Part shown: positions 1 to 53,016 of the stretch, one piece after another
Position numbering within the stretch: the stretch's first letter is position 1
Layout of the letters: each line of letters begins with the position of its first letter
Source of the DNA: a virus
Strand: one strand, 5' to 3'
DNA: 64,000 nucleotides
IMG/VR virus record: IMGVR_UViG_3300045996_001458
Location: 1 to 64,000 of that record
Translations under genes and position numbers: made by a program
The notes under the pieces: model-generated
Seen by the model: only the letters and a program-made list of their open reading frames with translations
What the model was told of the DNA's origin: nothing
Database searches by the model: none

Positions 1-37
1 GCGGGGAGGCAAATGGGTGCCCCACCGGGGACTCCCC

Positions 38-2531: not shown

Positions 2532-3038
2532 CTACACCTCCACGCCGTAGGCGGAGAAGAGCAGCAGCATCGTGGAGCAGAAGCCCTTGCGTCCGTCCAT
2601 GCAGATGCCGCACTCTCCGGCATCGGTGGTGGCGTGGAGGCGGATCATCTGCCGGTCCGCTTCGCAGCGCCTGATGATCGCAGCCGGGTCGTGTCGGGCG
2701 ATGTGACGCGCTGGCCCCACTTCCTGCCCGGCCTCGTCCACGTGTACCACCCAATGCGGCGACGCACCGGCCACGCGGCCGGGGTAGGGCAACCAGCGGT
2801 ACTCCTCTACCGACGTTAGGTCGACCGCTCCGCCGTCCTCTACATCCTCCCCAAGATACTCGTTGACCGTCATGTCGACGGGCAACATGTACTTGGAGCA
2901 ATGTCGGTAGCCGTGCACCCAGTGCCAGTGCTCGCCGGTTGCCGGGGCGTCGTCGTGGCCGGCGGAGCGAGCGATGCGTTCGGTTTCGTCGATGACTTCG
3001 AGTAGGCGGTCTTCGGCCGCGATGTGCTCGACCATCAC
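2532..3038 (-). CDS. DUF6221-like protein
   Basis: HIARHDPAAIIRRCEADR motif. Confidence 0.7.
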   Translation of the reverse strand: MMVEHIAAEDRLLEVIDETERIARSAGHDDAPATGEHWHWVHGYRHCSKYMLPVDMTVNEYLGEDVEDGGAVDLTSVEEYRWLPYPGRVAGASPHWVVHVDEAGQEVGPARHIARHDPAAIIRRCEADRQMIRLHATTDAGECGICMDGRKGFCSTMLLLFSAYGVEV

Positions 3039-3343
3039 GCCACCCCGTACGCGGTGGCGAGGTCACGGATCACGGACCGCATGACCATCCACGCGTCGGC
3101 GTGAAGGTCGGAGGACTCCGCCGTCAGGCGGTAGGCCGCCACGATCCGGCGGTCGGCGTCGCAGCGGCGCAGAACCGCGTTCGGGTCGTTGTCGGCGAGG
3201 AACGGGAACAGGGTCGCCTTGCCGTTGCGGCGCGGCAGGATGAGTACGGTCCGTGCGGCCTCGGCCTTGGACGCCTTGGCTTCGATCGCCTCGGTCAGGC
3301 GGGCGAGGAGGTCATCAGTGACAGGTGGTGCGTAGGACGGCAT
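3035..3343 (-). CDS. DUF6221-like protein
   Basis: NDPNAVLRRCDADRRIV motif. Confidence 0.7.
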   Translation of the reverse strand: MPSYAPPVTDDLLARLTEAIEAKASKAEAARTVLILPRRNGKATLFPFLADNDPNAVLRRCDADRRIVAAYRLTAESSDLHADAWMVMRSVIRDLATAYGVA

Positions 3344-3671: not shown

Positions 3672-3830
3672 TCAGGTGGCGAGCCACGCCTTGAGCAGGC
3701 GGCTCAGCTTCTTGGCGTTGCGTCGCGGTACACGGGCACCGCAGCAGGAGGTGTAGACGTAGAGGCCGTTCGGGGTGAACTCGAACAGGACGGTGTGGTG
3801 GCCGGAGCGGAGTCGGAACCGCTTGGTCAC
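3672..3830 (-). CDS. hypothetical phage protein
   Basis: GTGA overlap with DUF6221 gene. Confidence 0.5.
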   Translation of the reverse strand: MTKRFRLRSGHHTVLFEFTPNGLYVYTSCCGARVPRRNAKKLSRLLKAWLAT

Positions 3831-4195
3831 GGTCGCCACTCCGGGCGATAGCCGGGGCGGTGGCGGTAGGCCAGGGTCAACGCGTCTACGGCAGCACCGA
3901 GTCCACACAGGGTGAGGTAGTCGCCGTCCTCCATCTCGGCGTCGTATGAGTCGAGAATGGCGGTGTGAGCTTCACACTGGGCGAGGACGGCGCGGGGGCT
4001 GTGCAGCTGCCAGTGGCGATCGAGCCCCGTCGGCGGCGGGTACCAACCGGCGTCTTCCAGTTTGCCGGACGGTCGCCACTTCTCCCAGTCGGCGTCGCGG
4101 TGGTCGTCCTCGTCGCCCCACTCGGCACGGGCAGCAAGCGCCGCCTTCTTTGTCTCCGCAATCTGCTCGCGAAGCCAGTTGATCTGATCGAGCAT
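3827..4195 (-). CDS. DUF6221 family protein
   Basis: PRAVLAQCEA and C-terminal LAYRHRPGYRPEWRP. Confidence 0.8.
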   Translation of the reverse strand: MLDQINWLREQIAETKKAALAARAEWGDEDDHRDADWEKWRPSGKLEDAGWYPPPTGLDRHWQLHSPRAVLAQCEAHTAILDSYDAEMEDGDYLTLCGLGAAVDALTLAYRHRPGYRPEWRP

Positions 4196-4235
4196 GGTGT
4201 GACTCCTCGGCGGAAGGGTCGGAGGGAAGATCGTG

Positions 4236-4332
4236 CTCACCGGACAGGATTTGAACCTGCGCTTCCGCCCCTCGGTCGTCCATCTCTGTCCGACCGAGCG
4301 AGTGGCGTCCTGGGCCGCTAAACGACCGGTGA
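4236..4332 (-). ncRNA. tRNA-Glu-like RNA with a 31-nt hairpin-containing insert in place of the anticodon loop
   Basis: Acceptor TCACCGG/CCGGTGA, D arm GTTT-AGCGGCCCA-GGAC, T arm GCAGG-TTCAAAT-CCTGT; anticodon stem CCACT/GGCGG encloses CTCGGTCG/CGACCGAG hairpin. Confidence 0.75.
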
Positions 4333-4625: not shown

Positions 4626-5012
4626 CTACCTCGATGCCGGTTCACTCACATAGGTCGGGGTGACACCGTCAGCGGGCACAACATCTTCGACCAACCAGTA
4701 GGTCTTCCCGCCGTCATGGGACATGGCACGGGAGTGGCGAAGGTTCTGCCACCACGGCGACCCGCTCATCTCCGAGCGATCGATCCACTCGTTGGGGTCG
4801 TCCGTGATCGGCGAGAGGGGTTCGAAGCGGAGTAGGCGTTCGAGGTACGCGATCGCGTACGGGGCGGAGCCGCCGGAGTGTCCGCAGTCGGCGAACGCCT
4901 GGACCACGGCGACGATGCCGTCGATGGTGTCCGGATCTTCGCCGAGGCGCTGGAGTTCGCGTCGGGCGTGGGCGACGAGATTGCTGTCGGTGGACGTGAT
5001 GGCGGCGGTCAT
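4626..5012 (-). CDS. conserved phage hypothetical protein
   Basis: GHSGGSA...LLRFEPLSPITDDPNEW motif. Confidence 0.7.
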   Translation of the reverse strand: MTAAITSTDSNLVAHARRELQRLGEDPDTIDGIVAVVQAFADCGHSGGSAPYAIAYLERLLRFEPLSPITDDPNEWIDRSEMSGSPWWQNLRHSRAMSHDGGKTYWLVEDVVPADGVTPTYVSEPASR

Positions 5013-6570: not shown

Positions 6571-8721
6571 TCACGCCGCCGAGCGGATCTCCAGGTCCAC
6601 CCAGTAGCCGCCGCCCGAACCCGAGGTGCTCGGGGCGTTGGTGATCGCACCCGTCGAGAACACGCCCTGACCGCCCGCGTCGGCATCGCTGTAGGCCCGC
6701 AACGGGCCGGCGATGATGCCGCCCGTACCCGGCCCGCTCCCCCAGTAGGAGGAGGTGAACGGGAACCTGACCGGAAAGTGGACGGTCGGGATGTACACGG
6801 CACCCGTCATCGGACCGGTCGCGACGTCCAGTGCGACCGGGGTGGGGAGTTCGGCGAACACCCAGCCCTCGAACCCGGACTCGAAGGAGAACGTCACGTC
6901 GGATCCGACCTGGGTGTAGGTGGAGCCGTCCTTGCGCCACAACCTGCCGGTGATCACGCCGGCGACGTCGGCGACCTTCCAGAACGCGATGCGGGTCGCC
7001 TCGGCCGCCGCGGTCACCTGGACCTTGGTGCCGAGGTTGATGGCCCCCGCGTCCACCGCGGAGGTGGCGGGACCCGTCACGGCGTCCCACAGCCTGTAGA
7101 GGTTCACCGCCGGTGCGTTGGGGCTGGCCAGTCGGGTTGCGGGGCTGTCATGGTTGGGTCCGTAGATCGCCACGGGCGAGTTCGTGCCGGATGGGCCGAT
7201 GACGTACAACGAGCTGGATCCGCCGCCCGGTCCGATGCCGATGCCGGTCGGCGAGGGCGGCTCGGAGTTGATCCGGCCCAGGAAGCCGACTTCGCCGTTG
7301 AGCACGCCGTCCGCGTCGTTGACGTGCGCGCCCGCCGTCGGGGCGTAGATCCACGGCGTCAGCCCGTTGTAGGCGTAGTCCTCGATGTCCAGGTAGCCGA
7401 TGACACCTGTCCAGCCGGGGATCGGCACCACACCGCCGTCAGGGCCGGCCCCGGACGGGGCGTAGCCCGAGATGCCCCAAGGGCACTGTTCGAGCTTCAC
7501 GTGGTGCACGATGCCGTTGTGCGAGCAGGGCCGGCGGACCGCGAGGCCGATCTTGCAGCGGAGCGGGATGATGCTGTCCGCACGGAGATGCTCGGTCAGC
7601 ACACCGCCCGTGTAGTGGCCCTCCACCACCAACCGGCCCACGTCGACCACGACGTTGTTGTTGCTCCTCGGCAAGAGGACGGCCGCGCCGGTGGGGTGGG
7701 TCGGTTCGGGGATGTCGTCCAGGACCGCGTCCACGTCCACGCGGACGTCGCCCAGGCGCACCGTGGAGCACTGCTCAAGGTTCAACGCGCAGAGGCTCGG
7801 GTCGACCGGCTGCCGGATGATGAGTCGGTCGACGGTGAAGTGGACGTTGCTGAACGTGTTGCCGCTGCTATCGGTCATGTCGGAGTCGGTGGCGCCGACG
7901 ATGCTCGGCAGGCCGTCTGTGTCCGACCACGTGAACGGCGTCGAGTAGTCCACCCGCAGCACCGACGCGGTCTGCACCTGGCCGGGAGAGCCGCCCAGAT
8001 CCGCCGCGCGCACCACGTACGGCTCCCCGACACCCAGGAGACCGTAGGAGAGCTTCGTGAGCGCCCTGGACCGCATGGGGATCGGGAACAGGGCCCTGGC
8101 TTCGTCCGCGCTCACGGTGAGCCTGCCGCCCACCGCAGCGTTCGCCCGGTACGACACGGCGCGCGGGAAGTACACCAGCCCACCGACAGGGGAGGCGAGC
8201 ATCGCATCCCAGGCGGCACGGATCGCCGGGTAGTCGTCAGTGACGTTGTCCCCGACCGCGCCGTAGGTTTCGACGTTGAACAGAGGGAGCGTCCCTGCGC
8301 CGCCACCGGAGCCGCCTGCCGGTGCGCCGATCAGGTCCGCGTAGTCACCGGAGAACGCGACCGCGGCCAGCTCCGGGGTACCGGCAGGAACAGCCGCGGA
8401 CTCGGAGGTGATGACCAGTCGGTACGAGTCCGGCTCGAACGGAACCTCCGGGTCCAGGTCGGTCTTGTAGTACACCCGGTACCAGCCCGGAGTGAGGGCG
8501 CCGACGTCGGAATCCGGGCCTACCAGCACGCGGGCACGCCTGCGGCCGTTGGTCCACGTCTCCCCCGGCACCCACTCCGCCACGATCAGGTCGCTGTCAC
8601 CGGCAGGGGTGCCTACGGGTTTGACCGCCATCCACACCGGATCGCTGGACGGGTCGGTGGAGCTGGGGACCATGGCGTAGACGTACTTGGTGGACAGGCG
8701 GTACATGCGGACGTCGGTCAC
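6571..8721 (-). CDS. tailspike/depolymerase-like protein (N-terminal Ig-like domain, pectate-lyase-3-type beta-helix, C-terminal DUF4082-like domain)
   Basis: FNVETYGAVGDNVTDDYPAIRAA; LAAVAFSGDYADL fibre motif; INLGTKVQV...IAFWK...GYWVD; GGAGG RBS before GTG 8721. Confidence 0.75.
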   Translation of the reverse strand: MTDVRMYRLSTKYVYAMVPSSTDPSSDPVWMAVKPVGTPAGDSDLIVAEWVPGETWTNGRRRARVLVGPDSDVGALTPGWYRVYYKTDLDPEVPFEPDSYRLVITSESAAVPAGTPELAAVAFSGDYADLIGAPAGGSGGGAGTLPLFNVETYGAVGDNVTDDYPAIRAAWDAMLASPVGGLVYFPRAVSYRANAAVGGRLTVSADEARALFPIPMRSRALTKLSYGLLGVGEPYVVRAADLGGSPGQVQTASVLRVDYSTPFTWSDTDGLPSIVGATDSDMTDSSGNTFSNVHFTVDRLIIRQPVDPSLCALNLEQCSTVRLGDVRVDVDAVLDDIPEPTHPTGAAVLLPRSNNNVVVDVGRLVVEGHYTGGVLTEHLRADSIIPLRCKIGLAVRRPCSHNGIVHHVKLEQCPWGISGYAPSGAGPDGGVVPIPGWTGVIGYLDIEDYAYNGLTPWIYAPTAGAHVNDADGVLNGEVGFLGRINSEPPSPTGIGIGPGGGSSSLYVIGPSGTNSPVAIYGPNHDSPATRLASPNAPAVNLYRLWDAVTGPATSAVDAGAINLGTKVQVTAAAEATRIAFWKVADVAGVITGRLWRKDGSTYTQVGSDVTFSFESGFEGWVFAELPTPVALDVATGPMTGAVYIPTVHFPVRFPFTSSYWGSGPGTGGIIAGPLRAYSDADAGGQGVFSTGAITNAPSTSGSGGGYWVDLEIRSAA

Positions 8722-9155
8722 GAGGGACCTCCTCCGCGTGAAGTTGTTGTCCGGTCGAGCCCTCACCCAAGGGAGGGGCACCAATGCCAACGGTTCCCGC
8801 AGGGGCCTGAACCGGGCGGCGCAGCAGTTGGCGTGCCGCGCTGTCGGTGGTGTCCCTGACGCTCCCCCGGATCAAGGCTCGACCGGGAAGTAAGTGGGCC
8901 ACGACCCCGAGCACACCGCCGCCGCTGGTGCTCAAGAGGTCGTGGCCGGTATCCCCAACCGCGAGGGTCGGGGAGTTAGGCGACGGTCCGTTGCGGCCTG
9001 AAGCGTGCCGCCCGGTCTCCGCCTTGCCGGTGCGCCCGGTACTGCCGAAGCAGAACGGTCCCGCTGGCCGACTCGTTCTTGGGTGGGCGCATCCGGCCAG
9101 GGCGTGTACCCCTGGGCTGTCCGGACACTGCATCAGCACTTCCGAATGCGCCTCG

Positions 9156-9230
9156 TAGCGAGGGCAGGATTTGAACCTGCGACCTCTGGGTTATGAGCCC
9201 AGCGAGCTGACCGAGCTGCTCCACCTCGCG
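9156..9230 (-). tRNA. tRNA-Met(CAT), initiator type
   Basis: Full cloverleaf CGCGAGG...CTGGG-CTCATAA-CCCAG...GGTTCAAATCC; C1:U72 mismatch and three G-C pairs in anticodon stem. Confidence 0.95.
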
Positions 9231-9395
9231 TTGATGCTCGACGGGGTGCGCGACCACGTCGAGCGGTGCCGGCCGCGACGCCGGGAGGACGTCCGCAAAC
9301 GGTCCCGAAGGACATTCACTTGTACGCCGCTGGCTGTACCGGAGGCCGGGTGCCACGGTTGCCCGTGGCAGACAGCGGACGACTGGGGGATGCAC

Positions 9396-9424
9396 AAAAC
9401 CCCCGGACCGGAGTCACGGGGATT
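9396..9424 (-). terminator. intrinsic terminator-like hairpin close to promoter
   Basis: AATCCCCG...CGGGGGTT followed by TTGT. Confidence 0.5.
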
Positions 9425-9490
9425 GGGGCTGGACGACGGTTTTCCGTCGCAGTCGGGCGAACCTCGAAGACTCAGAACCCGACGCTATCG

Positions 9491-9519
9491 AAGATAGGCG
9501 GTCACTTTGCCTTCGTCAA
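9491..9519 (-). promoter_or_regulatory. sigA-type promoter
   Basis: TTGACG-17 bp-TATCTT. Confidence 0.7.
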
Positions 9520-9527
9520 CTCGGGGG

Positions 9528-10469
9528 CTACGCAGCCTGACTCGTACGCCGGACGTACCGGCCGGTGATGGCGTCCAACACCTCGCCGACCCGGAACAGT
9601 CGGCCCGCCACCGGGTCCTTGCGGGGCACCCATGGGCGGACGAACCAGCCGTTCACGTCCGTCACACCCGCGCCCGAATCGTCCTCGGTTAATTCGACGT
9701 AGGCGGCGATGCGCTTGCGTCGCAGAAGGCTGCGGAGCATGTCCGCGGTGACCCGCTCACCGTTGGCGCGGACGAGGCCGACCAGGAGGCCGATCTCCAC
9801 GTACCGCACCTCAGCAGCCGCGCTCAGCACGTCCTGCCTCTCGCCAACGTCGTGGATCGTGGAGCAGGCGGGGCAGCGCTTCTCCCAATCCCCTTCGCGG
9901 GCGAACAGCTTCTCCGGGCACTGCTCGAACACCCCATCCACTTCGATGGGGGCGGAGCAGATGCCGATGTAGACCTTGCCCGGAGCGGAGTCCACCGCCC
10001 GCCACGCGAGCCGGATCGTCTCCCGGACCTGGTCGTACAACTCGTCGGCGGCGCGGTGGAGAGCGATCCACGTCGGGTGGCGCATCAGCCAGCGCGAGGC
10101 GGCCAGCACGCCCGGGTTCAGGTCGAGCGGCGGGATCGTGCCGTCTTCGTCGTGGACGGCGTTGGCCTCCCACAGGTCGCGGCACCACGAGACGAGGCGG
10201 TCTCGGAGCAGGAGCTTGGACTCGGTAGCGGCGAGGTTGATCGGCATCGGCTGCTCGTCACCGCCGTTGGACACGAAGCCGACGCTCGCCCCGCCGATCT
10301 TGTCGCACCGGGAGATGGTGGTGTCCAGCTCTTCCACGAGGGCGGCGCAGTTACCCAGGTCCCGCAGTAGGTTGCCGAGACAGCCGCTCACGGCCCGCTC
10401 GTCGCCGCACAGGAACCGATCGGTCTGCGCACCGCAGACGACACACGTGCTGACGGTCTGCGCAGACAT
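9528..10469 (-). CDS. putative late-transcription regulator (zinc-ribbon plus C-terminal HTH-like)
   Basis: N-terminal CxxC, internal C...C...CxxC, C-terminal LFRVGEVLDA; last gene before promoter; contains a TTA codon. Confidence 0.6.
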   Translation of the reverse strand: MSAQTVSTCVVCGAQTDRFLCGDERAVSGCLGNLLRDLGNCAALVEELDTTISRCDKIGGASVGFVSNGGDEQPMPINLAATESKLLLRDRLVSWCRDLWEANAVHDEDGTIPPLDLNPGVLAASRWLMRHPTWIALHRAADELYDQVRETIRLAWRAVDSAPGKVYIGICSAPIEVDGVFEQCPEKLFAREGDWEKRCPACSTIHDVGERQDVLSAAAEVRYVEIGLLVGLVRANGERVTADMLRSLLRRKRIAAYVELTEDDSGAGVTDVNGWFVRPWVPRKDPVAGRLFRVGEVLDAITGRYVRRTSQAA

Positions 10470-10539
10470 CCAGGCCTCCCGGTCCACTGTGGCTGTACGG
10501 GTAGTGTGAGCGATCTAGAGGCAGATGCAAGTCCGCAGG

Positions 10540-36471: not shown

Positions 36472-36498
36472 GGGGGTCTCCTCAGGTCTGGTGGTCGG

Positions 36499-36572
36499 TG
36501 CCCCCGCCGGGGTTCGAACCCGGACGGGTCCGCTTTTAAGGCGGCTGCCTCTGCCGGTTGGGCTACGGGGGC
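36499..36572 (-). tRNA. tRNA-Leu(TAA), short variable arm
   Basis: GCCCCCG TA GCC...GGC A GCCGC-CTTAAAA-GCGGA CCCGT CCGGG-TTCGAAC-CCCGG CGGGGGC A. Confidence 0.9.
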
Positions 36573-37678: not shown

Positions 37679-39127
37679 TCAGGCCGCGGCGGCGGCAGAC
37701 AGGTGGGCGAGCAGGTAGGCGATCGCGGCGGCACCCTGCTGCCAGACGACGCCGTTGCCCAAGATCGTGAGCATCTGGTTTCGGGACAGGCCCGGGACAC
37801 CGGTGACGTGGCCGGCATCCAAGCCCATCAACCACTGGACGAACGCTGGGTTCAGGACCGGGTTGCCTTTGGCGCTGGTGATGGTCGGCCAAGGGGCGGG
37901 GCGCCCGAGGATGGCCGCCCACCGGTCGACAGCGGGGCCGTAGTCACCCCAGTCGAGTCCGACGGCGGGGCGCTCGTCGAAGACTCCGGGGACAGCAGGT
38001 AGTAGCCCAGAACTTCCGGCAAGGTGCTGAACCCATCCCTGACGTGCTGCATCGCCGAGGGCGCCGTCATGGAGTTGTTCCCGTCGGTCGTTCTCGGTGT
38101 CGGCAGCAGGCTCACCGTGGTCCGCAGGTCCGGTGCTCCCGTCCCGTGCGGTCCCGGCCCGTTCGCGTCCGAGGCTGTCGGGGTGGGCAGCAGTGCCCCG
38201 TGCAGGCAGGTCGCGTCGCCGCGCTGGTTCGCGCCCTTCCCGTCCCGCGCCGTCGGCGTCGGAAGCAGGGTTTGCACCGCCGACGGCAACATCAAGTCCC
38301 CGGACGAGCCGCGCTGGTTCGGCCCGCCCTTCGTCCCGTCCGTTGCCCGCGGGGTTGGGAGCAACCCCGCGGGCAACGGACGGGACGGCAATGACGAAGA
38401 CGCGGAATCGTCCGTGAGGGGCGCCCACGTCGGCTGCCCGTAGGCCGCACCAGCGTGCGTCATACCCGAGGCGGGCCAGGTCCCCGAGAACGGTTCCGAT
38501 GGCTCGAACAATGAGGGCGTCCGCCCGCTGTGCGGCGGAAGCTGCCCGGCGTCGTCGTCCCACGTAGCGAAGGCGCGCGGCTTGGACACGGTGCAGAAGC
38601 TCCTTGTTTCCGGATCGGGCGGCACGGGCTTGGGCACGCGCGAGGTAGGCGAGCCCCTGGTCGCACTGGTCGCGGTCTTCCCAGGCGGCGACCAGGTCCG
38701 CGGTGGGCGGGGCGCCGCGGGCGGTGAGCAGACCGCGGACGTTCTCGATGACGACCAAGCGCGGCCGGAGAGCGCCGATGGCGCGGCCCATCTGCCCCCA
38801 CAGGCCCGAGCGGGTGCCCTCGTACAGGCCGTCTTGCTTGCCGGCGGCGGACACGTCAGTGCACGGGAACCCGCCGGTGAGCACGTCCACCGGTTCGACC
38901 TGTGACCAGTCCACGTGCGACACGTCGCCGAGATTGGGGACGTCGGGGTGGTGGTGGGCCAGCACGGCGCAGGCACCGGGGTCGATGTCGGACACCCACG
39001 CCAGTTCACCGCCGAGCACTTGGCGCACGGCCATGTCGAGCCCGCCGTAGCCGCTGAAGAGTGAGCCGACGCGGAGCCCGTGCGGGTGTGGTGCCCCGGG
39101 TAGCGGCGGGTACGGGGGCGGGGTCAT
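37679..39127 (-). CDS. DNA (cytosine-5)-methyltransferase
   Basis: Motif I SLFSGYGG, IV GGFPC, VI IENV, VIII PHGRFRVF, X LGNGVV. Confidence 0.93.
   Translation of the reverse strand: MTPPPYPPLPGAPHPHGLRVGSLFSGYGGLDMAVRQVLGGELAWVSDIDPGACAVLAHHHPDVPNLGDVSHVDWSQVEPVDVLTGGFPCTDVSAAGKQDGLYEGTRSGLWGQMGRAIGALRPRLVVIENVRGLLTARGAPPTADLVAAWEDRDQCDQGLAYLARAQARAARSGNKELLHRVQAARLRYVGRRRRAASAAQRADALIVRAIGTVLGDLARLGYDARWCGLRAADVGAPHGRFRVFVIAVPSVARGVAPNPAGNGRDEGRAEPARLVRGLDVAVGGANPASDADGAGREGREPARRRDLPARGTAAHPDSLGRERAGTARDGSTGPADHGEPAADTENDRREQLHDGALGDAARQGWVQHLAGSSGLLPAVPGVFDERPAVGLDWGDYGPAVDRWAAILGRPAPWPTITSAKGNPVLNPAFVQWLMGLDAGHVTGVPGLSRNQMLTILGNGVVWQQGAAAIAYLLAHLSAAAAA
37852..38589 (-). CDS. overprinted ORF with four LLPTP repeats (putative second MTase subunit/TRD)
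   Basis: Alternative frame inside MTase; AAGGAG RBS before GTG 38589; SLFE.SE.FS.TWPASGM and LLPTP.(A/T).D repeats. Confidence 0.7.
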   Translation of the reverse strand: MSKPRAFATWDDDAGQLPPHSGRTPSLFEPSEPFSGTWPASGMTHAGAAYGQPTWAPLTDDSASSSLPSRPLPAGLLPTPRATDGTKGGPNQRGSSGDLMLPSAVQTLLPTPTARDGKGANQRGDATCLHGALLPTPTASDANGPGPHGTGAPDLRTTVSLLPTPRTTDGNNSMTAPSAMQHVRDGFSTLPEVLGYYLLSPESSTSAPPSDSTGVTTAPLSTGGRPSSGAPPLGRPSPAPKATRS

Positions 39128-49847: not shown

Positions 49848-51044
49848 ATGGGCAGGCCGCCGCTTGAACCTGGCACCGCAGGCAGCATCACCGTCACAGC
49901 CCTACCGGAGGGCGGCCATGTCGCCCGATGCCGGTTCGGCGACTACGACGGCGTCACCCGCCCGGTCGAGCGTCGCGGAAAGAACCAGCAGGCCGCGCGT
50001 GCGAACCTCCAGAAGGCGCTGAAGGATCGCAAGCGACTGGGTGGCGACGGTGAGATCGGCCCGGAGACCTTCGTGAAGGAGCTCGCCGAGCTGTGGTTCA
50101 CCAAGATCGAGGAGCGGGTGGCCGCCGGCAAACGGTCGCCGGGAACCGCGCGGACCTACCGCATCTACATGGACTCGCTCGTGATCCCGCTCATGGGCAA
50201 ACTCCGCCTCCGGCAGGTAACCGTGGGACGAGTCGACGCGCTCATCGCCGCGGCAGTGAAGGAGAAAGGGCCGGGTGCGGCGAAGACCACGCGGGCGGTG
50301 ATCTCGGGCATCCTCGGCATCGCCGTCAGGCACGACGTACTCGACGCGAACCCGACCCGCGAGGCCGAGGTGATCGAGTCCCCCGACAAGAAGCCGGCCA
50401 GGGCGCTGACGCTGGACGAGGTGGCGCTCATACGTGGGAAGGTCCGCAGCGACAAGCGGTCCGCGGCGCGGGACCTCCCCGACTTGGTGGACATGCTGCT
50501 TGCCACGGGACTACGCATCGGTGAGGTCTGCGCGATCACCTGGGACTCGCTGAATCTCGACGCGCGGACTGTCGAGGTTCGGGGGGTGGTGATCAGAGTC
50601 AAAGGCCAGGGCCTCACCATCAAGACGTATCCGGGGTCCAAGACGAAACACCGGACGCTGCTTCTTCCTCGATGGGCCGTCGCGATGCTGCTCGATCGGC
50701 AGGTGAGGCAGATACCGAACGAGTGGAACGTGGTGTTCACGTCCCCAAGGGGATTCCTGCGCGACCCCAGTAATACAAACGCGGATCTGCGGGACGTTCT
50801 CGACAAGGCCGCCGTCGATGATCAGGGCATGGAGGTGTTCCCTGCGATGGAGTGGGTGACGAGCCATGTCCTCGGCCGCAAGACGGTGCTCACGCTGATG
50901 AACCTCGCCGGGCTTCCGGCCAGCGCGGCGGCGGACCAGGCGGGACACTCGAAGGTGTCGATGACGCAGGACCACTACTTCGGCAGGAAGACCACCGACA
51001 CGGGGGCCGCAGACCTGCTGGACGACCTGTTCGAGTCCAAGTAG
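49848..51044 (+). CDS. int: tyrosine integrase
   Basis: LATGLRIGEVCAITW (R), TSHVLGRKT (H..R), AGHSKVSMTQDHY (H, Y). Confidence 0.95.
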   Translation: MGRPPLEPGTAGSITVTALPEGGHVARCRFGDYDGVTRPVERRGKNQQAARANLQKALKDRKRLGGDGEIGPETFVKELAELWFTKIEERVAAGKRSPGTARTYRIYMDSLVIPLMGKLRLRQVTVGRVDALIAAAVKEKGPGAAKTTRAVISGILGIAVRHDVLDANPTREAEVIESPDKKPARALTLDEVALIRGKVRSDKRSAARDLPDLVDMLLATGLRIGEVCAITWDSLNLDARTVEVRGVVIRVKGQGLTIKTYPGSKTKHRTLLLPRWAVAMLLDRQVRQIPNEWNVVFTSPRGFLRDPSNTNADLRDVLDKAAVDDQGMEVFPAMEWVTSHVLGRKTVLTLMNLAGLPASAAADQAGHSKVSMTQDHYFGRKTTDTGAADLLDDLFESK

Positions 51045-52752: not shown

Positions 52753-53016
52753 ATGAGCACCCTGCTGGCTGTCGCGTTACTGGTCGGAGCCCTCCGCGCC
52801 CTGCTCTACGTGATCTGGCTTCTCGCCCGCCCCCACAGGGCGATGTACGAGGAGATCGCCGCGCGGTGCGCAGCCCTCAACACCTCCGTCCCCGACCCCT
52901 CGGTGGACGGAACGGCCACGGCCGGGGCGGGAACCCCCGACTCTGCTCCGGTCGTGGCCCGTCGTCGTGTCGGCTGGTGGAGCGGAAGCGCCCCGGCCCA
53001 CAGGCGGGTGGCGTGA
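52753..53016 (+). CDS. small membrane protein
   Basis: GGAGGAG RBS; N-terminal TM; TTA codon at 52777. Confidence 0.6.
   Translation: MSTLLAVALLVGALRALLYVIWLLARPHRAMYEEIAARCAALNTSVPDPSVDGTATAGAGTPDSAPVVARRRVGWWSGSAPAHRRVA

What the first reader, a model, noticed from the sequence alone, without database searches (positions are those of the whole stretch)
8751..9485. ~730-nt densely structured non-coding region with an embedded initiator tRNA (GOLLD/ROOL-like architecture)
Seen on the minus strand, downstream of a TTGACG-17-TATCTT promoter: GCGACGG-AAAA-CCGTCGT; TGCCACGG-GCAA-CCGTGGCA (GNRA); GTCC-TTCG-GGAC; GCTCGACG/CGTCGAGC; tRNA-fMet; an 11-bp-closed multi-stem domain at 9086-9152; CTGC-TTCG-GCAG; TCCCCGACC/GGTTGGGGA; a long hairpin at 8897-8947; and a ~135-nt multibranch domain closed by CCGGTCGAGCC/GGCTCGACCGG (8751-8886). 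Stable tetraloops and G-U pairs all favour one strand. Known: GOLLD and ROOL are large phage-associated ncRNAs often next to or containing tRNAs. Inference: a large ncRNA, or a cluster of processed sRNAs, not obviously a known family.
Basis: partly seen in the sequence, partly recalled or inferred. Interest (0 to 1): 0.7.

Follow-up and report, generated by a model that had tools for sequence, protein, structure and literature searches.

The report
Modular phage operon leader with tRNA
The roughly 800-base gene-free stretch is real, folds into many hairpins and carries a working initiator tRNA, but comparison with four related soil phages shows a mix-and-match control region (promoter, early stop signal, swappable tRNA slot, conserved double hairpin), not one giant GOLLD/ROOL-type RNA.

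Summary
Observation confirmed. Window 8722-9527 (minus strand) is non-coding and holds an initiator-type tRNA-Met (9155-9230); every listed hairpin is present. Only the 3' ~250 nt (8751-9000) is unusually stable for this 68% GC, 82-kb temperate siphovirus (host probably Nocardioidaceae).

No Rfam family other than tRNA matches, even at E<=10. Four related loci share the region piecemeal:
- A promoter, the only TTGACN-16..18-TANNNT site in the genome.
- An ~80-100-nt leader ending in a GC hairpin with a U-rich tail (T1).
- A tRNA slot bracketed by tight hairpins, holding fMet, Ser or Trp, or empty. One relative has an HNH gene inserted.
- A double hairpin (T2) present in all five loci, with 11 of 29 pairs covarying.
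- A 136-nt extended hairpin found only in this phage.

Best reading (about 0.5): a modular operon leader placed after a conserved 319-aa zinc-finger-like gene. The nearest parallel is the Q-PR'-tR'-tRNA leaders of lambdoid phages. The hairpins would act as an attenuator and as processing or stability signals.

A single large ncRNA is unlikely (about 0.07). Expression could not be tested. I rate this a new variant of a known kind, of moderate interest.

The parts
9528..10487 (-). Upstream gene: 319-aa protein with conserved Cys clusters (phrog_908, function unknown). Its homologue precedes the leader in all five loci.
   Evidence: The AF2 model has pLDDT 78.6 and no convincing PDB match.
9491..9519 (-). 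Promoter P: TTGACG-17-TATCTT, starting 9 nt after the upstream stop codon.
   Evidence: It is the only TTGACN-16..18-TANNNT site in the 82-kb genome on either strand. The block is conserved in L006 and L005 (TTGACA-17-TAGATT) and more weakly in L007. The extended motif is unique in the window, with 0 expected by chance.
9452..9483 (-). Leader hairpin A, the first structure of the predicted transcript.
   Evidence: A 5' hairpin at the same relative place folds in all five leaders.
9433..9450 (-). Leader hairpin B: GCGACGG-AAAA-CCGTCGT.
   Evidence: In L024 it reads ACGACGG-GAAA-CCGTTGT; the G.U wobble moves to another pair, so pairing is kept on this strand.
9391..9424 (-). T1: promoter-proximal GC hairpin followed by GUUUUGUG (intrinsic-terminator-like), ending about 90 nt after the predicted start.
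   Evidence: A 62-nt block is 94% identical in L024. Strict terminator scan hits occur at the same relative place in L005 and L024. L006 and L007 have weaker U-rich tails there.
9267..9390 (-). Window-specific spacer holding the GNRA hairpin 9370-9351 and the UUCG hairpin 9313-9302.
   Evidence: No counterpart in any related locus.
9236..9264 (-). H5: hairpin GCTCGACG...CGTCGAGC, ending 5 nt before the tRNA.
   Evidence: The same arms lie 4 nt before tRNA-Ser in L006. A different hairpin ends 5 nt before tRNA-Trp in L024.
9155..9230 (-). Initiator-type tRNA-Met (CAU).
   Evidence: It is 96% identical to the tRNA of a Nocardioidaceae MAG and differs by a compensatory G5-C68 to A5-U68 change plus one extra D-loop base; the flanks are unrelated.
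9086..9152 (-). H3: three-way-junction domain closed by an 11-bp stem, starting 2-3 nt after the tRNA and followed by CACCCAAGAAC.
   Evidence: L006 has a simple hairpin (GGCGCG...CGCGCC) plus ACCCAAAAC at the same place. L024 has an unrelated hairpin there. A soil contig matches 9093-9144 at about 80%, and its flanks can pair with each other (weak).
8981..9085 (-). Window-specific spacer holding the CTGC-TTCG-GCAG hairpin (9053-9042).
   Evidence: No counterpart in relatives; ordinary stability for this genome.
8897..8974 (-). T2: small hairpin (8974-8952) plus long hairpin of about 20 bp (8947-8897), with no U-tract. This is the one module present in all five loci.
   Evidence: 88% of cells are paired and 11 of 29 pairs show compensatory change, reached by 0-1 of 500 shuffles; slid controls give 41-46%. 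Each copy folds alone with z -4.0 to -6.7.
8751..8886 (-). 136-nt extended, branched hairpin (13 + 11 bp basal stem containing four G.U pairs). It is specific to this phage and lies where L024 and L006 encode an 84-86-aa ORF.
   Evidence: -87.5 kcal/mol; 5th most stable 150-nt window in the genome. The small ORF has no homologue in this genome. A soil variant has 2 pair-keeping and 2 pair-breaking changes.
6571..8735 (-). RBS GGAGGAGG (8735-8728) and the downstream gene starting at GTG 8721: a 716-aa tail-spike-like protein (pectate-lyase-like domain plus DUF4082).
   Evidence: Its N-terminal 128 aa are 76% identical to the gene that follows T2 and the small ORF in L024.

Best explanation
The stretch is the non-coding leader of an internal transcription unit of a temperate, high-GC siphovirus. 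It is built from separable RNA and DNA signals and is not one large RNA.

Proposed sequence of events:
1. Host RNA polymerase starts at the genome's only consensus promoter, directly after the conserved 319-aa gene.
2. The first ~90 nt fold into two hairpins and a GC hairpin with a U-tract (T1). T1 stops part or most of the transcripts. It therefore acts as an attenuator, or yields a short leader RNA in the manner of lambda PR'-tR'.
3. Read-through RNA carries an initiator tRNA clamped between two hairpins. RNase P and a 3' endonuclease excise the tRNA. The clamps then cap the new 3' and 5' ends of the remaining RNA.
4. The conserved double hairpin T2, and in this phage the extra 136-nt hairpin, head the downstream mRNA (tail-spike-like gene, then Tad3 and others). 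They most likely act as RNase III-type processing or stability elements.
5. The tRNA slot is a cassette exchanged between relatives.

Shown here: the non-coding status, the tRNA, the promoter motif and its uniqueness, the terminator-like signature at the same place in relatives, the covariation in T2, and the modular distribution of parts.

Inferred: transcription itself, termination at T1, tRNA processing, the role of T2, and any role of the 319-aa protein.
For: Modularity. The promoter block is shared with L006, L005 and L007. T1 is shared with L024 at 94%. H5 is shared with L006. T2 is shared with all four relatives. The rest is unique to this phage.

Variable tRNA slot. The tRNA is fMet here, Ser(GCU) in L006 and Trp(CCA) in L024. 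L005 has none, and L007 has a tRNA-like RNA after T2. An HNH_3 gene lies between the tRNA and T2 in L024, and a T5orf172 gene lies before T1 there.

Promoter. P is the only consensus match in 82 kb.

Leader. All five leaders fold as a 5' hairpin or hairpins plus a terminal GC hairpin with a U-rich tail, 77-100 nt long, with z -2.2 to -5.5. Strict terminator scan hits occur in 3 of 5.

T2. Covariation is shown.

tRNA clamps. A hairpin ends 4-5 nt before, and another starts 0-3 nt after, each of the three tRNAs. This is not so at the phage's other tRNA.

Functional tRNA. The acceptor stem carries a compensatory change relative to a Nocardioidaceae tRNA.

Genome position. The unit lies 9.5 kb before the genome end whose other end starts with terS and terL. 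In provirus L007, terL starts about 5 kb downstream.

Precedent. Variable tRNA genes sit at the 5' end of the late operon just after Q and PR' in P22-like phages L and Sf6 (PMC8022706).
Against: There is no expression evidence. The one metatranscriptome laid covers only the tRNA part, which is nearly identical to bacterial tRNAs, and Logan contigs cannot show RNA ends.

L006 and L007 lack a strict U-tract after the T1-equivalent hairpin, and L024 has no promoter match by the scan.

A terminator between a promoter and a tRNA is awkward unless read-through is regulated.

The downstream genes are not clearly late genes. They include Tad3 and DUF6221 here and an exonuclease in L006.

Only five loci are available, so covariation rests on few sequences. 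Half of the stretch has no comparator. The one variant of the 136-nt hairpin breaks two pairs of its inner stem.
Confidence: 0.5

Rival explanations
1. One large structured ncRNA (GOLLD/ROOL-like) of about 730 nt with an embedded tRNA, which folds as a unit and acts as a unit.
For: The stretch is long, ORF-free, hairpin-rich and phage-borne, and it has a Met-tRNA inside. GOLLD can carry tRNAs in its linker and also occurs in Mycobacterium tRNA arrays (PMC12286853). The fold z-score is -4.3 for the 3' part.
Against: No match to any Rfam family except tRNA at E<=10. The modules are shuffled, absent or separated by a protein gene in relatives. No supported long-range helix exists. The stretch 9001-9500 is not more stable than the genome background. 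A terminator-like site lies 90 nt into the supposed RNA.
Confidence: 0.07
2. The 3' third (T2 plus the 136-nt hairpin, 8974-8751), and perhaps H3, are discrete stable small RNAs released from the tRNA precursor. The parallel is the stable RNAs C and D of the T4 tRNA cluster (recalled from memory). They would have a function of their own rather than acting in cis on the mRNA.
For: This is the most stable part of the region and clearly favours the minus strand. T2 is conserved with covariation. Near-identical fragments of 8700-8966 occur in soil metagenomes.
Against: In three relatives T2 lies a few to about 20 nt before the RBS of the next ORF, which suggests a cis role. In L005 T2 occurs with no tRNA at all. 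The 136-nt hairpin has no homologue outside near-identical strains.
Confidence: 0.15
3. The hairpins matter mainly at the DNA level, as conserved joints for cassette exchange or homing. In that case the promoter and stem-loop flanks let tRNA and endonuclease genes move between phages, as with the PeSL cassettes of T4-type phages.
For: Three different tRNAs occupy the same slot between conserved flanks. HNH_3 and T5orf172 endonuclease genes are inserted beside the modules in L024. Blocks are 94% and 89% identical between phages whose neighbouring proteins are 40-76% identical.
Against: G.U wobbles and compensatory changes in T2 and hairpin B point to selection on RNA pairing on one strand. This reading explains the mosaic pattern but not the U-tract or the promoter. 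It is compatible with the best explanation rather than exclusive of it.
Confidence: 0.12
4. T1 is simply the terminator of the upstream early operon. P is an independent constitutive promoter of a tRNA 'moron' that ends at T2, and there is no regulated read-through.
For: In L024 T1 follows a stop codon by about 50 nt with no promoter match. P is a host-type consensus promoter. The cargo is variable.
Against: In four of five loci the promoter lies upstream of T1, so its own transcripts meet T1 first. T2 has no U-tract. In L007 the tRNA-like gene lies after T2.
Confidence: 0.12

Closest known systems
tRNA genes at the 5' end of the late operon of lambdoid/P22-like phages (phage L, Sf6), downstream of gene Q, promoter PR' and terminator tR' (PMC8022706)
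   Same: A regulator-type gene is followed immediately by a single promoter. A promoter-proximal terminated leader comes next. The tRNA genes present differ between relatives. Then come the downstream genes, near the genome end that joins to terS/terL. It is likewise unknown in those phages whether the tRNAs are cut out of the long transcript.
   Different: There is no sequence or fold similarity of the 319-aa protein to any Q family. The host is an actinobacterium. The downstream genes are not lysis genes. The tRNA is clamped by hairpins, and a conserved double hairpin (T2) follows it.
GOLLD (RF01998) and ROOL (RF03087) large ornate phage RNAs (PMC12286853)
   Same: All are phage-borne, long, ORF-free and next to or around tRNAs (including Met-tRNA), and GOLLD occurs in Actinobacteria.
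   Different: No covariance-model match. There is no conserved multi-pseudoknot core. The parts are not inherited together. The stretch contains a promoter-proximal terminator.
T4 tRNA gene cluster with stable RNAs C and D and resident homing endonuclease genes (recalled from memory, not checked here)
   Same: tRNA(s) would be co-transcribed with structured non-tRNA RNAs and processed from a precursor, and endonuclease genes are inserted in the region (HNH_3 and T5orf172 in L024).
   Different: There is a single tRNA, no sequence relation, and the hairpins here are not tRNA-like.
RNase III processing hairpins of T7 and lambda polycistronic mRNAs (textbook knowledge)
   Same: T2's long hairpin (12 + 6-7 bp with an internal bulge) and the 24-bp base of the 136-nt hairpin have the length and interrupted-helix form of such sites, and they sit between cistrons.
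   Different: Cleavage is untested. Actinobacterial RNase III site rules are poorly defined.

Membership tests
GOLLD RNA (Rfam RF01998) | Match to the family covariance model, in particular the universally conserved 3' domain | tested here: not met
   cmscan of the whole window at gathering score and of 8600-9650 at E<=10 with lax filters lists no GOLLD match.
GOLLD RNA (Rfam RF01998) | Phage or prophage location next to or around tRNA genes | tested here: met
   IMG/VR virus record; tRNA-Met lies inside the stretch.
ROOL RNA (Rfam RF03087) | Match to the family covariance model (complex multi-pseudoknot fold) | tested here: not met
   searches give no match. No supported long-range pairing.
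Any single large structured ncRNA | The parts are inherited together and keep their order in homologues | tested here: not met
   The modules occur in different subsets and orders in L005, L006, L007 and L024, and an HNH gene sits between tRNA and T2 in L024.
Bacterial initiator tRNA (tRNA-fMet) | CAU anticodon; unpaired 1:72; three consecutive G-C pairs closing the anticodon stem; A11:U24 | tested here: met
   ARAGORN. The Rfam alignment marks 1:72 as non-canonical and shows CUGGG/CCCAG and GAGC/GCUC. It is 96% identical to a Nocardioidaceae MAG tRNA with the same features.
Intrinsic (factor-independent) terminator, for T1 | GC-rich stem-loop directly followed by a U-tract on the transcribed strand | tested here: met
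   Scan hit 9413-9401 plus GTTTTGTGCA; the extended 8+3-bp stem is.
Intrinsic (factor-independent) terminator, for T1 | Transcripts actually end there | not testable with these tools
   Only Logan contigs were available, and they cannot show RNA ends.
Lambdoid Q / PR' / tR' late-operon leader | The regulator gene directly upstream belongs to a Q antiterminator family | tested here: inconclusive
   No Pfam hit; phrog_908 has unknown function. The best structural matches are DinB-like helical bundles at Z 7-8 and a Xis-like winged helix at Z 5.1, all in the non-specific range.
Lambdoid Q / PR' / tR' late-operon leader | A single promoter followed within about 100-200 nt by a terminator, upstream of the late or packaging genes | tested here: inconclusive
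   The promoter plus terminator layout is met. terL lies 5 kb downstream in provirus L007, and terS/terL lie across the genome end here. However, L006 has an exonuclease downstream and this phage has Tad3.
HK022 put-type antiterminator RNA | Two adjacent hairpins in the nascent RNA, upstream of the terminators they suppress | tested here: inconclusive
   T2 is two adjacent hairpins with covariation, but it lies after T1. Downstream terminators were not mapped and there is no sequence relation.

The most novel reading that the evidence does not exclude
The conserved trio could be an undescribed late or delayed-gene switch of actinobacterial phages. The trio is the 319-aa Cys-rich protein gene, the genome's only consensus promoter with a ~90-nt terminated leader, and the covarying double hairpin T2. 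In this reading the protein, or T2 acting on RNA polymerase like a put RNA, makes polymerase read through T1 and later terminators. The tRNA slot would ride along as exchangeable cargo.
Probability: 0.15. Interest if true: 0.7.

Novelty: new variant of a known kind. Interest (0 to 1): 0.38.

Why it matters
If the reading holds, it gives uncultured Nocardioidaceae-type phages a concrete, testable control region. Transcription control in actinophages outside a few Mycobacterium and Streptomyces models is almost unknown.

The region offers four things to test:
- a unique promoter;
- an early stop signal;
- a conserved RNA motif (T2) with covariation;
- a defined slot in which tRNA genes (fMet, Ser, Trp) and homing endonuclease genes are swapped.

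It also shows that a long, hairpin-rich, tRNA-containing gap in a phage need not be a GOLLD/ROOL-type RNA. The test that separates the two is whether the parts travel together in relatives.

Tried and rejected
The closest relatives seen only as proteins could therefore not be inspected: P0002 at 82% identity on a 32-kb Logan contig, and P0003-P0007.

DNA and protein searches that led nowhere:
- blastn of the stretch against 50,697 phage records matched only the tRNA. Megablast of 10 kb gave only a 36-nt tRNA piece.
- The search for related loci with single proteins gave one locus each, none in genome contigs, and only L024 again for the tail-spike N-terminal domain.
- Pattern scans for T1 and for the promoter found only L024 and L006.
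- The T2-arm pattern also returned 7 chance palindromes in IMG/VR and 9 chance sites in bacterial genomes.
- The T2 covariance model run against 151 Nocardioidaceae-family genomes found only the phage scaffold binned in G003 and one ordinary bacterial terminator.
- Distant homologues of the 319-aa gene (about 30% identity, L008-L015) have no such leader.

Sequencing runs. Soil DNA runs hold near-identical fragments (8700-8966, 9006-9144, 9346-9560). The metatranscriptome X13 covers only the tRNA-like part, plus one short piece with unrelated flanks. No conclusion on expression or on uncovered parts can be drawn.

Coding hypotheses:
- The 180-aa and 139-aa ORFs in the stretch have no family hits.
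- The 183-aa ORF after the L005 homologue is unrelated to the window ORF.
- The 84-86-aa ORF that follows T2 in L006 and L024 has no homologue in this genome.

Other:
- An alignment-based consensus fold of the five P-to-T1 leaders failed because they are too divergent to align. I folded them singly instead.
- Sub-threshold Rfam rows (mir-7558, Flavivirus SLIV and others at 9-19 bits) are chance.

Full report
WHAT IS THERE

The window is bases 1-64000 of an 82,067-bp IMG/VR virus record rated 100% complete, with about 68% GC. On the minus strand, a 319-aa ORF ends at 9528 and a 716-aa tail-spike-like ORF starts at GTG 8721, behind the RBS GGAGGAGG. The 806 nt between them show none of the GC3 periodicity seen in both flanking genes. 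The spurious ORFs inside have no Pfam or PHROG hit.

ARAGORN and Rfam both call a tRNA-Met(CAU) at 9155-9230(-). The Rfam alignment shows an unpaired 1:72 position, GGG/CCC closing the anticodon stem and A11:U24, which together are the bacterial initiator signature. A Nocardioidaceae MAG carries a 96% identical tRNA. The phage copy differs by a compensatory G5-C68 to A5-U68 change and one extra D-loop base, while the flanks are unrelated. The tRNA therefore looks functional, and the host is probably a Nocardioidaceae-type actinobacterium.

IS IT MORE THAN CHANCE?

Shuffle z-scores are -4.3 for 8722-9154 on the minus strand (plus strand -2.0) and -2.8 for 9231-9527 (plus strand -1.5). I also folded the whole genome in 150-nt windows and regressed MFE on GC content. 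Only 8751-9000 stands out: the window 8751-8900 ranks 5th of 1640 on the minus strand (z -3.1). The stretch 9001-9500 is ordinary for this genome.

RELATIVES

DNA searches of phage records find only the tRNA. The upstream protein has 68 homologues in the large protein collection.
- L006, a complete 60-kb phage (66% aa identity).
- L005, a 4.5-kb metagenome contig (60%).
- L007 (same as L003), a provirus (49%).
- L024, a 26-kb phage fragment that also appears as a scaffold binned in a Nocardioidaceae MAG (L031). It was found through the long hairpin. Its homologue of the 319-aa gene is 40% identical and lies one gene further upstream.

MODULAR ANATOMY

Pairwise comparison splits the stretch into modules.

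1. Promoter P. The block CCCCCGAGTTGAC..AAAGTGA.CGCCTA...GTCGGGTT is shared with L006. L005 and L006 both have TTGACA-17-TAGATT, and L007 has TTGCGT-17-TACATT. In this genome P is the only TTGACN-16..18-TANNNT site on either strand, and the extended motif is unique.

2. Leader and T1. From the predicted start, all five loci fold into one or two 5' hairpins and a terminal GC hairpin followed by a U-rich tail. The leaders are 77-100 nt long, with z -2.2 to -5.5. The strict terminator scan hits the window, L005 and L024. The window and L024 share 62 nt at 94% here. The leaders of L005, L006 and L007 have different sequences at the same place.

3. The tRNA slot. It holds fMet here, Ser(GCU) in L006 and Trp(CCA) in L024. 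L005 has no tRNA. L007 has a tRNA-like RNA (46.5 bits, abnormal anticodon arm) placed after T2. In the three canonical cases a stable hairpin ends 4-5 nt before the tRNA and another starts 0-3 nt after it. The phage's other tRNA (Leu-UAA, 36497-36572) has no such clamps. The 5' clamp has the same arms here and in L006 even though the tRNA differs.

4. T2. This is a 7-9-bp hairpin, a 1-4-nt linker and a hairpin of about 20 bp, and it is present in all five loci. Each copy folds alone with z -4.0 to -6.7. On a model-guided alignment, 88% of cells pair and 11 of 29 pairs show compensatory change. Only 0-1 of 500 shuffles reach these values, and slid controls give 41-46% pairing (long hairpin alone). 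T2 has no U-tract. In L005, L006 and L024 the RBS of the next ORF follows within a few to about 20 nt.

5. Parts unique to this phage. These are 9390-9267 (GNRA and UUCG hairpins), 9085-8981, and the 136-nt extended hairpin 8886-8751. The 136-nt hairpin lies where L006 and L024 encode an 84-86-aa ORF that has no homologue in this genome. It folds at -87.5 kcal/mol, and four G.U pairs in its 24-bp base favour the minus strand. A soil-metagenome variant has two pair-keeping and two pair-breaking changes, which decides nothing.

In L024 an HNH_3 endonuclease gene sits between the tRNA and T2, and a T5orf172-domain gene sits before T1.

WHY IT IS NOT A GOLLD/ROOL-TYPE RNA

GOLLD and ROOL are phage RNAs near tRNAs. 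GOLLD can even hold tRNAs in its linker and occurs in Mycobacterium tRNA arrays (PMC12286853), so the lead was reasonable. Four results argue against it here:
- Neither family, nor any other Rfam family, matches, even at E<=10.
- The parts are not inherited together.
- A protein gene can separate two of the parts.
- A terminator-like site lies 90 nt into the supposed RNA.
In addition, the long-range helices in the global MFE break the tRNA and are unsupported.

GENOME CONTEXT AND MECHANISM

Read on the minus strand, the genome runs as follows: terS (81530-82021), terL, portal, capsid, tail; then integrase (49848-51044, plus strand); then a long run of small genes; then the 319-aa gene, this leader, the tail-spike-like gene, Tad3 (PF25185, 4626-5012) and three DUF6221 genes up to the end. 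After the ends join, transcription from P would run toward terS. In provirus L007, terL begins about 5 kb downstream of the leader.

This layout parallels lambdoid phages, which have gene Q, promoter PR', terminator tR' and then the late genes. P22-like phages such as L and Sf6 carry variable tRNA genes exactly there, and it is unknown whether those tRNAs are cut out of the late mRNA (PMC8022706).

I therefore read the stretch as a modular operon leader: promoter, attenuating terminator (or short leader RNA), an excisable tRNA with end-protecting clamps, and processing or stability hairpins ahead of the first ORF.

Four points weaken the 'late operon' label:
- L006 has an exonuclease downstream.
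- This phage has anti-defence-type genes downstream.
- The 319-aa protein has no detectable relation to Q or to any solved fold. Its best matches are DinB-like bundles at Z 7-8 and a Xis-like winged helix at Z 5.1, all within the non-specific range.
- No transcript data could be obtained.

EARLIER NOTES OF THIS SCAN

Other agents have described late-operon leaders with tRNA-like RNAs in phages of Gram-positive bacteria. I did not test those claims, and they are not evidence here. They do show that this kind of region recurs. Nothing resembling this sequence had been noted before.

VERDICT

The large-ncRNA interpretation is not supported, while the 'cluster of processed RNAs' alternative is partly supported. 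The region is a new variant of a known kind, namely a phage operon leader with a tRNA. Its genuinely new details are the T2 motif, the tRNA clamps and the unique promoter with a terminated leader placed after a conserved unknown gene.

Noticed in passing
window 4626-5012 (-): A 128-aa protein matches Pfam Tad3 (type I Thoeris inhibitor, PF25185) at E 9.5e-37. It lies in the same transcription direction, downstream of the leader.
   Followed up: no
window 2532-3038, 3035-3343, 3827-4240 (-): Three paralogous DUF6221 (PF19730) genes in a row lie near the genome end.
   Followed up: no
L007 7193-7266 (+) and about 7440-7515: The provirus relative carries, after T2, a tRNA-like RNA (Rfam tRNA 46.5 bits) with an abnormal anticodon arm that ARAGORN does not call. 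A second stretch further on has a T-arm-like GGAGAGTTCAAATCCTCC. Such altered tRNA-like RNAs may be a theme of this phage group.
   Followed up: partly
L024 8621-9397 (-) and 7814-8269 (-): A T5orf172-domain gene and an HNH_3 endonuclease gene are inserted on either side of the T1-tRNA part of the leader. This suggests a homing hot spot.
   Followed up: partly
window 9482-9487 (-); L006 6960-6965; L007 about 6957-6962: A second -10-like hexamer TAG(C/T)GT lies 3-4 nt after the real -10 in three of four promoters. It recalls the sigma-dependent pause elements used by lambdoid Q proteins. Seen by eye only.
   Followed up: no
window 38251-38450; genome 74251-74400: These are the most stable 150-nt windows of the whole genome on both strands (z about -5 and -3.6 to -4.5). 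They are far more extreme than anything in the finding, and the symmetry between strands suggests long inverted repeats.
   Followed up: no
L005 about 1277-1290, L007 about 7040-7055, L024 about 8505-8490 (-): The motif CACAACTGAAT(A/C)(C/G)CCGG follows the T1-type hairpin in three relatives but is absent from the window and from L006.
   Followed up: no
window 52877-52964 (+): A weak hit of the T2 model (24.4 bits, E 0.017) lies near the immunity region. It is probably chance.
   Followed up: no
window 9528-10487 (-): The 319-aa protein family has invariant C171, C184, C199, C202 and H206, and nearly invariant C9, C12, C21 and C30. The AF2 model shows an N-terminal four-helix bundle and a C-terminal region that weakly resembles mycobacteriophage Xis. 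It may be a DNA-binding regulator.
   Followed up: partly
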